A stretch of 1,240 bases of DNA, from the NCBI GenBank assembly GCA_000004985.1, contig GG739484.1; one strand, written 5' to 3'. This document shows positions 1 to 1,033 of this stretch, piece by piece. The DNA comes from Naegleria gruberi (Eukaryota). A program made the translations under genes and the position numbers. The notes beneath the pieces are model-generated. The model saw only the letters and a list, made by a program, of their open reading frames with translations. It did no database searches and was not told the origin of the DNA. Numbering within the stretch: position 1 is the stretch's first letter; each line of letters begins with the position of its first letter.

Positions 1-1
1 A

Positions 2-109
2 CATATTGTTTTGTGTCTTTCAGGTGATGAATGTAATCCTTTAAGATTAGCAATTTTTGTCAATGATTATGAAGGTGAAGATTCACAGGTTGCATTGGAG
101 CTTGAATAG
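2..109 (+). CDS. Possible 3' end of a gene entering from the left edge (35 codons plus TAG); product unknown
   Basis: The frame starting at position 2 is open from the window edge and reads HIVLCLSGDECNPLRLAIFVNDYEGEDSQVALELE*, with stop TAG at 107-109. The peptide is not low-complexity. It uses the same preferred codons (ggt, gaa, gat, tta, aga, att, gtt) as the two complete ORFs. Its orientation is convergent with the 309..524 ORF, leaving about 200 bp for two 3' UTRs. Caveats: only 35 codons are visible, and the opposite strand is also open over 63..173. Confidence 0.35.
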   Translation, partial: HIVLCLSGDECNPLRLAIFVNDYEGEDSQVALELE

Positions 110-260
110 CATCATCCACCAATCCAAATTGTTTTTTTAATTCCTCAATATCAGTTGCACCATCATATGTTCTTCACAAAATGAAACAAGCTGATAGTGA
201 ACACATCAGATTCTGCAAATACTGGAACATTTGATTTTCAACTCTTTGTTATTATTTTGG

Positions 261-308: not shown

Positions 309-524
309 CTACCACTTTTTGAATTTTTTGTTTCTCATTTCCAAAGTGTTATGTGATTGAGATTTGGAAGTTTTGCTTGTTTCACTTCCAATAGAATTCA
401 ATGTTTTGTAATCAATTAAATTTCTTCTTCTTGTTCCACCCACAATATTATCCAATGAAATTTCGGAATTAAATTGTGAAGTGTTATTGGAGGAATTATA
501 CATATTTCTCCTTGTTGAGACCAT
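309..524 (-). CDS. Small basic Ser/Asn/Lys-rich protein (71 aa) with a CHZ-like motif (SLDNIVGGTRRRNLIDYK); paralog of the 740..1033 ORF
   Basis: Complete ORF from ATG (524-522) to TAG (311-309). The start context is AAGAAAATGG, with A at -3. An in-frame TGA lies 11 codons upstream, so this is the first ATG. The motif encoded at 405..461 matches 11 of 19 residues of the motif in the divergent ORF, including a shared nucleotide 9-mer GGAACAAGA (429..437 reverse complement versus 881..889). The N-terminus (RNxxNSS) and C-terminus (NKKFKKW versus NKKITKSKKM) also align. By length alone a 71-codon frame is only modestly unusual in AT-rich DNA. The paralogy is the main support. Confidence 0.6.
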   Translation of the reverse strand: MVSTRRNMYNSSNNTSQFNSEISLDNIVGGTRRRNLIDYKTLNSIGSETSKTSKSQSHNTLEMRNKKFKKW

Positions 525-533
525 TTTCTTATT

Positions 534-550
534 GTTATTTTCTTTTGTTG
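534..550 (-). promoter_or_regulatory. Conserved leader element CAACAAAAGAAAATAAC (copy upstream of the 71-aa ORF)
   Basis: The minus strand reads CAACAAAAGAAAATAAC and ends 9 nt before the ATG. It matches CAACAAAACAAAATAAC at 701..717 on the plus strand at 16 of 17 positions. Confidence 0.45.
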
Positions 551-583
551 GTTTTCATTAAATTTCTTTCATCAAAATATTAA

Positions 584-591
584 TATAAAAA
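584..591. promoter_or_regulatory. TATA-box-like element TATAAAAA, overlapping the 10-bp palindrome ATATTAATAT (577..586)
   Basis: It matches the TATA(A/T)A(A/T)(A/G) consensus. It lies 60 bp upstream of the minus-strand ATG and about 150 bp upstream of the plus-strand ATG. TATA-like strings are common in AT-rich DNA, so this is weak. Confidence 0.3.
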
Positions 592-609
592 TTCAAACTT
601 CTTGTGATG

Positions 610-624
610 AGTGGAAAATCCACT
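610..624. repeat. Perfect short palindrome/hairpin AGTGGA-AAA-TCCACT
   Basis: The 6-bp arms at 610..615 and 619..624 are exact reverse complements separated by a 3-nt spacer. Confidence 0.6.
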
Positions 625-651
625 AAAAATCGGAATCATAAAATTAGTGGA
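619..651. repeat. Inverted repeat TCCACTAA ... TTAGTGGA (8-bp arms, 17-nt spacer)
   Basis: 619..626 and 644..651 are exact reverse complements. The centre (about 635) is close to the midpoint (632) between the two ATGs. The left arm overlaps the right arm of the 610..624 palindrome. Confidence 0.6.
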
Positions 652-701
652 ATCATCATGGAAATAAATAGATAATTGGTATCGGATGATGATATTTCCA
701 C
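647..701. repeat. Imperfect inverted repeat GTGGAATCATCAT ... ATGATGATATTTCCAC
   Basis: The left arm at 647..659 is GTGGAA-TCATCAT. The reverse complement of 686..701 is GTGGAA-ATA-TCATCAT. That gives 13 matched positions with one 3-nt indel and a 26-nt spacer. The direct repeat GGAATCAT also occurs at 632..639 and 649..656. Confidence 0.55.
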
Positions 702-717
702 AACAAAACAAAATAAC
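701..717 (+). promoter_or_regulatory. Conserved leader element CAACAAAACAAAATAAC (copy upstream of the 97-aa ORF)
   Basis: It matches the reverse complement of 534..550 at 16 of 17 positions and ends 22 nt before the ATG at 740. It is followed by a local ATAAC duplication (ATAACTAAATAAC). Confidence 0.45.
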
Positions 718-739
718 TAAATAACAAATACTAATCAAA

Positions 740-1033
740 ATGCCAGCTAGAAATACTTCATCAAATTCTTCATCTTCCGAAGATAGAATTCCAACAAAAA
801 CAGTCTGGTCAAGATCTAAACCAATCGATTTATCTAAAAGATTACCATTATTTGATATTGATACATCTAATATTATTAGTGGAACAAGACATCGTAATAA
901 TATTGATTATCATCATGCAAATTTAAATGGTAAACAAATTTCAGTGAAAAGATCTTCTAAAAATTCAATTGAAAAGAGAGCTAAACAATCAACCACCACT
1001 AATAAGAAGATTACCAAATCGAAAAAGATGTAA
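740..1033 (+). CDS. Small basic protein (97 aa) with a CHZ-like (Chz1-type histone H2A.Z-H2B chaperone) motif DIDTSNIISGTRHRNNIDYHH; otherwise uncharacterised
   Basis: Complete ORF from ATG 740 to TAA 1031-1033. The start context is ATCAAAATGC, with A at -3, and an in-frame TAA lies 6 codons upstream. A 97-codon open frame is uncommon in DNA this AT-rich because stop codons are AT-rich. Codon use is strongly biased (all 5 Pro are CCA, 7 of 8 Arg are AGA, all 4 Leu are TTA). The motif at 857..913 resembles the Chz1 CHZ motif as I recall it. It is paralogous to the divergent 71-aa ORF. The Lys/Arg-rich C-terminal third (KRSSKNSIEKRAK...NKKITKSKKM) is NLS-like. Confidence 0.72.
   Translation: MPARNTSSNSSSSEDRIPTKTVWSRSKPIDLSKRLPLFDIDTSNIISGTRHRNNIDYHHANLNGKQISVKRSSKNSIEKRAKQSTTTNKKITKSKKM

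What the first reader, a model, noticed from the sequence alone, without database searches (positions are those of the whole stretch)
405..461. Second, more degenerate copy of the motif keeps the basic core and IDY but loses the IDTS head
The 71-aa ORF encodes ISLDNIVGGTRRRNLIDYK. NI-x2-GTR-x-RN-x-IDY is retained, including the GGAACAAGA nucleotide string. The DIDTS segment of the partner is replaced by EISLD. Conservation of exactly this block, when the rest of the two proteins has drifted to near-unalignable low complexity, argues that the block is the functional unit under purifying selection in both copies. The differences in the head could reflect subfunctionalisation, for example different histone-variant preference.
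Basis: partly seen in the sequence, partly recalled or inferred. Interest (0 to 1): 0.5.

Follow-up and report, generated by a model that had tools for sequence, protein, structure and literature searches.

The report
Unannotated mini CHZ-motif gene in Naegleria
The motif is real and lies in a small, conserved but unannotated Naegleria gene that is an ancient mirror-image duplicate of its neighbour; both encode tiny basic proteins with a histone H2A-H2B-binding (CHZ) motif, which makes this an ordinary new family member rather than a new kind of system.

Summary
Window 405-461(-) encodes ISLDNIVGGTRRRNLIDYK inside a 71-aa ORF (309-524, -), which is transcribed divergently from a 97-aa ORF (740-1033, +) carrying FDIDTSNIISGTRHRNNIDY. 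The window comes from a Naegleria gruberi-like amoeba.

Both ORFs hit Pfam CHZ (PF09649). The long one scores above the gathering cut-off and the short one just below. Profile comparison of the two families gives 96% probability of homology.

The short ORF is a real gene:
- Same-sized orthologues (68-74 aa) sit next to a long-paralogue orthologue in at least four other Naegleria lineages, including N. fowleri.
- Overall pN/pS is 0.37. Two close variants differ by 7 synonymous and 0 non-synonymous changes.
- It is absent from the N. fowleri gene calls.

- The motif is not the only conserved block. The C-terminal SHNTLEMRN (pN/pS 0.035) and the N-terminal MV[SC]TR are conserved more strictly.
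- The "lost" head is a paralogue-specific head, SE[IV]Sx[DE], that is itself conserved.
- Individual copies do decay: a 187-nt deletion in one close relative and a nonsense codon in one N. fowleri copy. The unit is multi-copy in N. fowleri.

Both proteins are strongly basic and lack the acidic helix and DEF/Y motif of yeast Chz1. Histone binding and variant preference are untested.

The parts
309..524 (-). Short paralogue: 71-aa ORF plus stop codon. Intrinsically disordered and basic (pI 10.5).
   Evidence: The ORF is listed. Orthologues of 68-74 aa are P0006-P0008 (E = 5e-16 to 2e-6) and L009-L011. pN/pS is 0.37, p = 5e-9. L004 and L005 differ by 7 synonymous and 0 non-synonymous changes. AlphaFold2 gives pLDDT 54. 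pI is.
387..467 (-). CHZ-type motif of the short paralogue, residues 20-46: SEISLDNIVGGTRRRNLIDYKTLNSIG. The finding's span 405-461 lies inside it.
   Evidence: Pfam CHZ matches residues 21-40 at 21.1 bits, E = 2e-4, against a gathering score of 23.3. Residues invariant in the short family are S20 E21 S23 N26 I27 G29 G30 T31 R32 R34 Y39 N43 G46.
327..356 (-). C-terminal conserved block SHNTLEMRNK, residues 57-66. It is the only segment predicted helical.
   Evidence: S57-N65 are invariant in all five short orthologues. pN/pS is 0.035, with 12 synonymous and 2 non-synonymous changes. The block aligns with SSKNSIEKRAK of the long paralogue. AlphaFold2 predicts a helix at residues 61-68.
510..524 (-). 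Conserved N-terminus MVSTR.
   Evidence: MV[SC]TR is present in all short orthologues and in the truncated contigs L002 and L003. The block shows 0 non-synonymous changes.
525..739 (.). 215-nt divergent intergenic region, presumably a shared bidirectional promoter plus the two 5' leaders. The leaders mirror each other. It contains the palindrome GTGGAAAATCCAC at 611-623.
   Evidence: Inverted repeat I2, 532-554 / 705-727, is 78% complementary. It is conserved in L001 and L003, and partly in L002 and L004. Spacer lengths of 185-260 nt in other lineages include both start codons. Promoter function is inferred.
740..1033 (+). Long paralogue: 97-aa ORF plus stop codon, basic (pI 10.9). It is an orthologue of N. 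gruberi 'predicted protein' entries carrying PF09649.
   Evidence: The ORF is listed. Homologues P0001-P0005 are 69-95% identical, and two are named N. gruberi. dN/dS is 0.16-0.31. pI is.
854..910 (+). CHZ motif of the long paralogue, residues 39-57: DIDTSNIISGTRHRNNIDY.
   Evidence: Pfam CHZ scores 25.9 bits, above the gathering score of 23.3. A PDB profile search aligns it to yeast Chz1 'AEIDTSNIITSGRRTRGKVIDYKK' in 2JSS_B and 6AE8_C. These are the top hits, but E is only 0.3-0.4.
953..985 (+). Second shared block of the long paralogue, SSKNSIEKRAK, residues 72-82.
   Evidence: It aligns to the short paralogue's SHNTLEMRNK. It is conserved in long-gene orthologues except for an in-frame loss in the L007 copy.
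380..566 (.). Segment missing in the close relative L001. It covers codons 1-48 of the short gene, including the start codon and the motif, plus 42 nt of leader.
   Evidence: Pairwise alignment maps window 317-379 to L001 1-63 and window 567 onward to L001 64 onward. The junction has a 5-nt TTTCA microhomology and no GT..AG or CT..AC ends. No ATG remains in frame.

Best explanation
The 71-aa ORF is a genuine, conserved and so far unannotated protein-coding gene of Naegleria. It arose by an old inverted duplication of the neighbouring 97-aa gene. The duplication included the 5' leader and predates the split between the N. gruberi and N. fowleri lineages. The two genes are now transcribed divergently across a spacer of about 200 nt.

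Both products are tiny, intrinsically disordered, strongly basic proteins. Their conserved core is a bipolar CHZ motif: an acidic or polar head, then N-I, then the basic G-T-R-x-R, then [DN]-Y. This motif is homologous to the one in yeast Chz1 and in HIRIP3.

By inference from those proteins, the motif docks on an H2A-type/H2B dimer. The arginines would contact acidic histone residues near H2B alphaC and H2A alpha2, and the head would contact basic residues. A second shared element, S-x-N-[ST]-[LIV]-E-[KM]-R, is predicted to be a short helix. Together with the invariant N-terminus it probably supplies additional contacts or partner binding.

Shown here: the ORF, its paralogy, its conservation, purifying selection, the CHZ homology, the charge, and predicted disorder. 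Inferred: expression, histone binding, and any division of labour between the two paralogues.
For: Organism and long gene:
- The 97-aa ORF is 88-95% identical to N. gruberi proteins and metagenome proteins carrying PF09649.

CHZ homology:
- Pfam CHZ hits both ORFs and 9 of 10 family members.
- The best PDB profile hits are yeast Chz1 chains, aligned on IDTSNII..G.R.R..IDY.
- Paralogy is supported by BLASTP E = 9e-8, hhalign 96.4%, and DNA inverted repeats covering both the motif and the 5' leader.

Short ORF orthologues:
- An exhaustive HMMER search found three same-sized orthologues.
- Their contigs each carry the long paralogue divergently upstream: L004, L006 and L007.
- L007 is N. fowleri.
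- The N. fowleri assembly GCA_008403515.1 has four more copies of the unit next to actin.

Selection on the short ORF:
- L004 versus L005: 7 synonymous, 0 non-synonymous changes.
- Pooled pN/pS is 0.37, p = 5e-9. By block it is 0.035 for the C-block, 0 for the N-terminus, 0.365 for the motif and 0.53 for the linkers.
- All indels between orthologues are in frame, and the start and stop positions are conserved.

Disorder and charge:
- pLDDT is 54, matching Chz1 being unstructured when free (PMC6544321).

Role of the motif in characterised proteins:
- The CHZ motif is required for H2A-H2B binding by HIRIP3 (PMC10854748).
- It is described as a general H2A/H2A.Z-H2B binding device across eukaryotes (PMC6544321).
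Against: - The short ORF's Pfam score (21.1 bits) is below the gathering cut-off of 23.3. PDB hits to Chz1 are not significant on their own, at E = 0.3-0.8.
- No transcript, proteomic or binding evidence was available.
- Both proteins are strongly basic, with net charge +6 to +14 and pI 10-11. They lack the acidic N-helix and the DEF/Y motif that give yeast Chz1 much of its affinity and its ability to compete with DNA (PMC3395605, PMC6544321). A classical chaperone role is therefore doubtful.
- Single copies are dispensable. L001 has deleted the short gene's 5' two-thirds. One N. fowleri copy has a nonsense codon. L005 has deleted the 5' end of the long gene instead.
- The pN/pS partition pools four pairwise comparisons that share sequences, and dS between distant lineages is near saturation.
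Confidence: 0.6

Rival explanations
1. The gene is real and conserved, but the CHZ-like block does not act as a histone-dimer chaperone motif. In such a basic, acid-poor mini-protein it could instead serve as a nuclear or nucleolar targeting signal, as a binder of the acidic patch on assembled nucleosomes, or as a nucleic-acid-binding segment. In that case the invariant C-terminal SHNTLEMRN block would be the main functional element.
For: - pI is 10-11, with no acidic helix and no DEF/Y motif (sequence).
- The C-block and the N-terminus are constrained more tightly than the motif.
- The short ORF falls below the Pfam gathering score.
- Published data show that regions outside the CHZ motif are needed for full affinity and for specificity (PMC10854748, PMC6544321).
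Against: - The motif's diagnostic positions (N-I, G-T-R-x-R, [DN]-Y) are invariant in both paralogues across all lineages.
- The long paralogue shares IDTSNII and IDY with yeast Chz1 and passes the Pfam threshold.
Confidence: 0.25
2. The 71-aa ORF is a decaying relic, a pseudogene, of the inverted duplication. Its resemblance to the partner would then be leftover similarity rather than maintained function.
For: - It is not annotated in the N. fowleri gene calls.
- Its Pfam score is sub-threshold.
- L001 lacks its 5' two-thirds, and L008 carries a premature stop.
- An ORF of this length is not rare by chance in this base composition.
Against: - The ORF is intact, with conserved start and stop, at seven other loci spanning N. 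gruberi-like and N. fowleri lineages.
- Non-synonymous changes are strongly depleted: pN/pS 0.37, p = 5e-9, and 7 synonymous versus 0 non-synonymous changes between L004 and L005.
- Nine consecutive residues of the C-block are invariant despite 12 synonymous changes.
- The long gene shows an equivalent copy loss in L005, so the loss of single copies says nothing specific about the short gene.
Confidence: 0.07
3. The ORF is not a stand-alone gene. It would be an exon or upstream ORF of a larger transcript, for example one spliced to sequence further downstream on the minus strand.
For: Naegleria genes can contain introns. An open frame also exists on the minus strand at window 63-176.
Against: - The stop codon falls 4-5 codons after the conserved EMRN[KR] in every orthologue.
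- The downstream flanks are unrelated between lineages: a 600-aa gene in L006, V-ATPase d in L007, and actin in L008-L011.
- The window's downstream frames have no detectable homologue.
Confidence: 0.05

Closest known systems
Saccharomyces cerevisiae Chz1 (YER030W), the H2A.Z-H2B chaperone; PDB 2JSS, 6AE8, 8QZ0
   Same: Both share the bipolar CHZ motif. Yeast has AEIDTSNIITSGRRTRGKVIDYKK, the Naegleria long paralogue has FDIDTSNIISGTRHRNNIDYHH, and the short paralogue has SEISLDNIVGGTRRRNLIDYKT. Both are small, and both are disordered when free (PMC6544321).
   Different: - Yeast Chz1 is 153 aa (chain 8qz0_K) and has a negatively charged helix on the N-terminal side of the motif (PMC3395605).
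- It also has a C-terminal helix that reads H2A.Z G98, and a C-terminal DEF/Y motif (DDDFKE) (PMC6544321).
- The Naegleria proteins are 68-100 aa and have pI 10-11.
- They have no acidic run, and their C-termini are basic (KKFKKW, KSKKM).
- The motif itself lacks the two one-residue insertions seen in yeast.
HIRIP3 (mammals) and AtChz1/OsChz1 (plants): long CHZ-motif proteins
   Same: The CHZ motif is the only region shared with yeast Chz1. These proteins also lack the H2A.Z-specificity elements and the DEF/Y motif. They bind both H2A-H2B and H2A.Z-H2B (PMC6544321, PMC10854748).
   Different: HIRIP3 is 556 aa, with Glu-rich and poly-Ser regions. It needs an extended region of about 124 residues for full affinity (PMC10854748). 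The Naegleria proteins are little more than the motif plus one short helix.
Naegleria gruberi and N. fowleri 'predicted/hypothetical protein' entries with PF09649 (P0002, P0004, P0014-P0016; for example CAG4712597.1, XP_044560021.1)
   Same: They are direct orthologues of the window's 97-aa gene and paralogues of the 71-aa ORF. They show the same divergent arrangement.
   Different: Those entries are the long paralogue. The short paralogue lacks the 20-residue IPTKTEWTRSKPIDLSKRLP insert and has its own head, SE[IV]Sx[DE]. No gene is called at its position in the N. fowleri records.

Membership tests
CHZ motif/domain family (Pfam PF09649) | Match to the PF09649 profile at or above the curated gathering score (23.3 bits) | tested here: not met
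   The short ORF scores 21.1 bits, E = 2.1e-4, over residues 21-40 and profile positions 8-29 of 34. This is just below the cut-off. Its divergent partner scores 25.9 bits and passes. Nine of 10 members of the two families match at E <= 1.
CHZ motif/domain family (Pfam PF09649) | Demonstrable homology to a protein that does meet the family threshold | tested here: met
   Short versus long ORF by BLASTP gives E = 9e-8. Short-family versus long-family profiles by hhalign give 96.4% probability and E = 1e-9 over 46 columns.
CHZ motif/domain family (Pfam PF09649) | Bipolar motif: acidic or polar head, N-I, a basic G/x-R-x-R core, then [IV]-[DN]-Y | tested here: met
   The short ORF has S-E-I-S-L-D-N-I-V-G-G-T-R-R-R-N-L-I-D-Y. 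N26, G30, T31, R32, R34 and Y39 are invariant across both paralogue families. The motif aligns to yeast Chz1 IDTSNII..G.R.R..IDY.
CHZ motif/domain family (Pfam PF09649) | Motif-dependent binding to H2A-H2B and/or H2A.Z-H2B dimers | not testable with these tools
   This needs pull-down, ITC or NMR with Naegleria histones. It has been shown only for yeast Chz1, AtChz1b and HIRIP3 (PMC6544321, PMC10854748).
Fungal Chz1-type H2A.Z-specific chaperone | Acidic N-terminal helix flanking the motif that covers the DNA-binding surface of the dimer | tested here: not met
   There is no acidic run. The short protein has 5 D/E against 13 K/R and pI 10.5. The long protein has 7 against 21 and pI 10.9.
Fungal Chz1-type H2A.Z-specific chaperone | C-terminal DEF/Y motif: consecutive D/E residues followed by F or Y | tested here: not met
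   The C-termini are ...EMRNKKFKKW and ...KKITKSKKM. No D/E run is present in any orthologue.
Fungal Chz1-type H2A.Z-specific chaperone | Preference for H2A.Z-H2B over H2A-H2B | not testable with these tools
   This needs biochemistry. Published work attributes the preference to elements that are absent here (PMC6544321).
HIRIP3/AtChz1-type long CHZ proteins | Large protein (about 400-550 aa) with Glu-rich and Ser-rich regions and an extended CHZ region of about 120 aa | tested here: not met
   The complete ORFs are 68-74 aa (short) and 88-100 aa (long), with conserved starts and stops.

The most novel reading that the evidence does not exclude
Naegleria's mini-CHZ proteins could be a distinct functional class. 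They would be minimal, basic, acid-free CHZ-motif proteins that do not shield histones from DNA as Chz1 does. Instead they would use the arginine core to bind the acidic surface of H2A-type/H2B dimers, possibly on assembled nucleosomes. They would be encoded as co-regulated divergent pairs, with paralogue-specific heads and the 20-residue insert giving the two members different histone or partner preferences.
Probability: 0.12. Interest if true: 0.55.

Novelty: new member of a known kind. Interest (0 to 1): 0.3.

Why it matters
- It adds a conserved small gene that current Naegleria fowleri annotations miss. The short ORF lies unannotated between actin and the long paralogue at four loci, and between CAG4712597.1 and CAG4712598.1 at a fifth.
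- It shows that the CHZ histone-binding motif can exist in a near-minimal protein of about 70 aa, in a basic context, in a discoban (Heterolobosea). That offers a natural minimal system for asking what the CHZ motif does without the acidic flanks and DEF/Y motif of yeast Chz1.
- The practical value is modest: better annotation, and a candidate pair for histone-binding assays.

Tried and rejected
- **Exact-protein look-ups.** Look-ups of both window ORFs and of the N. gruberi proteins P0002 and P0004 found nothing on record. N. gruberi reference DNA could therefore not be examined.
- **Word-index homologue search.** The search with the 71-aa ORF found nothing. The exhaustive HMMER search was needed.
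- **JGI metagenome scans.** Scans with the long-family and short-family alignments both returned no relatives.
- **PDB searches.** Single-sequence searches gave no hits. The profile search gave Chz1 as top hits, but non-significantly.
- **Intron hypothesis for L001.** The segment missing in L001 has no GT..AG or CT..AC boundaries in any register allowed by the 5-nt microhomology, so this was rejected.
- **Left flank of the window.** The frames at 11-109(+) and 63-176(-) have no detectable homologue and no similarity to the other loci.
- **RNA genes.** Rfam and tRNA scans found nothing. One sub-threshold snoRNA match at E = 0.29 was ignored.
- **Structure.** The AlphaFold2 model was too low in confidence (pLDDT 54) to justify a fold search.
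- **Literature.** No paper links Naegleria with Chz1, CHZ or HIRIP3.

Full report
**Observation**

The window is AT-rich, at 24-33% GC. It holds two divergently oriented ORFs: 309-524(-) of 71 aa, and 740-1033(+) of 97 aa.

Translating 405-461(-) gives exactly ISLDNIVGGTRRRNLIDYK. The partner encodes FDIDTSNIISGTRHRNNIDY.

GGAACAAGA occurs at 429-437(-) and 881-889(+). None of 200 shuffles gave two matches. The string is simply the Gly-Thr-Arg codons. One relative uses ACT for the Thr, so the nucleotide string carries no meaning of its own.

The two ORFs are 43% identical over 47 aa, E = 9e-8. The motif-coding DNA is independently reported as an inverted repeat, 409-450 / 868-909, 74% complementary. 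So are the two 5' leaders, 532-554 / 705-727. ORF length alone is not evidence, because 20% of simulated windows hold an ORF of at least 71 aa.

**Origin**

The 97-aa protein is 88-95% identical to proteins named 'predicted protein [Naegleria gruberi]' and to metagenome proteins carrying PF09649. The window therefore comes from an N. gruberi-like heterolobosean amoeba.

**What the motif is**

Pfam's CHZ model (PF09649, 'Histone chaperone domain CHZ') is the only hit for either ORF:
- Long ORF: 25.9 bits, above the 23.3 gathering score.
- Short ORF: 21.1 bits, E = 2e-4, just below it.

Nine of 10 members of the two families match CHZ. A profile of both families has yeast Chz1 chains (2JSS_B, 6AE8_C, 8QZ0_K) among its best PDB hits, aligned on AEIDTSNIITSGRRTRGKVIDYKK. 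The E-values of 0.3-0.8 are not significant on their own.

**Is the short ORF a gene?**

The word-index search found nothing. The exhaustive HMMER search found three same-sized orthologues:

| Protein | Length | Identity | E-value |
|---|---|---|---|
| P0006 | 72 aa | 69% | 5e-16 |
| P0007 | 70 aa | 55% | 7e-9 |
| P0008 | 74 aa | 50% | 2e-6 |

Their contigs (L004/L005, L006, L007) each carry an orthologue of the long gene divergently upstream, with a 185-260-nt spacer counted including both start codons.

L007 is N. fowleri. Its long gene is CAG4712597.1, and the next gene is V-ATPase subunit d, CAG4712598.1. The short ORF lies between two consecutively numbered entries, so it is unannotated there.

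The N. fowleri assembly GCA_008403515.1 holds four more copies of a unit arranged as actin(-), short(-), long(+) (L008-L011). No gene is called at the short ORF in any of them. The motif regex finds exactly one short-type and one long-type motif per complete locus. The duplication therefore predates the split between the N. gruberi-like and N. fowleri lineages.

**Selection**

Nei-Gojobori counts:
- L004 versus L005 short gene: 7 synonymous and 0 non-synonymous differences.
- Window versus L004/L005: dN/dS 0.24-0.31.

Pooled over four comparisons:

| Region | pN/pS |
|---|---|
| Whole short ORF | 0.37 (binomial p = 5e-9) |
| N-terminus MV[SC]TR | 0 |
| C-block SHNTLEMRN[KR] | 0.035 (12 synonymous, 2 non-synonymous) |
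| Motif, residues 20-46 | 0.365 |
| Linkers and tail | 0.53 |

Residues invariant in the short family are M1 V2 T4 R5 S20 E21 S23 N26 I27 G29 G30 T31 R32 R34 Y39 N43 G46 and S57-N65. Across both paralogues the invariant residues are M1 N26 G30 T31 R32 R34 Y39 G46 S57.

Two caveats apply. The comparisons share sequences, and dS is near saturation for distant pairs.

1. The motif is not the only conserved block. A second block, S-x-N-[ST]-[LIV]-E-[KM]-R, is shared by both paralogues. In the short gene it is more strictly conserved than the motif.
2. The N-termini are also related. The short gene has MV[SC]TR, and the long gene has MVSRT in L006 and L007.
3. The main structural difference is a 20-residue insert, IPTKTEWTRSKPIDLSKRLP, found only in the long paralogue.
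4. The head is not degenerate. SE[IV]Sx[DE]NI is conserved in every short orthologue, and [DN]I[DN]x[SC]N in every long one. This is paralogue-specific constraint.

**Copy decay**

- L001 is a close relative, with its long gene 95% identical. It lacks window 380-566, which covers the short gene's start, its motif and 42 nt of leader. The junction shows 5-nt microhomology and no splice-like ends, and no ATG remains in frame. The retained 63 nt differ by three synonymous changes and one non-synonymous change, by manual reading. This suggests a recent loss.
- L008, one N. fowleri copy, has a CAA to TAA change at codon 39.
- L005 shows the reciprocal pattern. Its short gene is intact, but 92 nt covering the long gene's start codon and first 15 or so codons are deleted.

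With at least five copies in N. fowleri, the loss of single copies is expected. It does not contradict purifying selection on the family.

**Mechanism**

Shown in characterised proteins:
- The CHZ motif is bipolar and binds H2A.Z-H2B by complementary charges (PMC3395605).
- It lies over H2B alphaC and reaches H2A alpha2. It is indispensable for HIRIP3 binding to H2A-H2B, but it does not distinguish H2A from H2A.Z (PMC10854748).
- In yeast, specificity comes from the flanking helices and a C-terminal DEF/Y motif. CHZ proteins that lack these bind both dimers (PMC6544321).

Observed here:
- The Naegleria proteins have pI 10-11 and net charge +6 to +14.
- They have no acidic helix and no DEF/Y motif.
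- The short protein is predicted to be disordered, with pLDDT 54, apart from a helix at residues 61-68 in the C-block.

Inferred: the motif tethers these mini-proteins to H2A-type/H2B dimers. Whether they act as chaperones, as nucleosome binders or as something else is open. Variant preference determined by the head is unlikely on current literature, but it is untested.

**Other checks**

- No RNA family or tRNA was found.
- The left flank has no detectable homologue.
- Two JGI metagenome scans were empty.
- No paper links Naegleria to Chz1, CHZ or HIRIP3.

**Verdict**

This is a new, unannotated member of the known CHZ-motif family, with an unusually minimal and basic architecture. Interest is modest.

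Noticed in passing
L005:1-330 versus L004:90-520 (L004 206-297 is missing in L005): This is the reciprocal of the L001 deletion. In this close variant the short gene is intact, but 92 nt are deleted. The deletion covers the long paralogue's start codon, its first 15 or so codons and 47 nt of leader, and no in-frame ATG is left.
   Followed up: partly
L008-L011 (N. fowleri GCA_008403515.1) and L007: The short/long pair is multi-copy in N. fowleri. Four copies sit in a duplicated unit arranged as actin(-), short(-), long(+), and a fifth lies next to V-ATPase subunit d. The short ORF is not among the called genes at any copy. The L008 copy has a CAA to TAA nonsense codon.
   Followed up: partly
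window 611-623 (within the intergenic region 525-739): A perfect palindrome, GTGGAAAATCCAC, lies midway between the two start codons. It is conserved exactly in L001 and L003 and as GAAAATCCACC in L002 and L004. It is not recognisable in L006, L007 or L009. It is a candidate shared promoter element in the N. gruberi-like clade.
   Followed up: partly
window 532-554 and 705-727: The 5' leaders just upstream of the two ATGs are inverted copies of each other (23 nt, 78% complementary). An AAAACAAAA[TC]AAC element upstream of the long gene's ATG is conserved in all lineages. The ancestral inverted duplication therefore included the leader.
   Followed up: partly
L007:708-974(-), compared with P0015 and P0016: The V-ATPase-adjacent N. 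fowleri copy of the long paralogue (88 aa, CAG4712597.1) has an in-frame 12-residue loss that removes the second conserved block (KNTLEKRS...). The block is present in the 100-aa actin-adjacent copies.
   Followed up: no
window 1-180: Two overlapping open frames run to or near the window's left end. One is on the plus strand, after a possible splice acceptor, ending at 109 (...GDECNPLRLAIFVNDYEGEDSQVALELE*). The other is on the minus strand at 63-176. Neither has a detectable homologue, and the flank is not shared with the other Naegleria loci, so what lies downstream of the short gene here is unknown.
   Followed up: partly
window 510-524(-) and 740-754(+): The extreme N-termini are unusually conserved for disordered proteins. 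All short orthologues have MV[SC]TR, and the long orthologues have MVSRT or MPARN. The function is unknown and was not examined further.
   Followed up: no
L001:610-661 versus window 1114 onward: Beyond the long gene's 3' flank, L001 stops aligning with the window. L001 therefore differs structurally from the window at two places within 661 nt. This could reflect a rearranged paralogous copy or a different strain, and assembly chimerism cannot be excluded.
   Followed up: no
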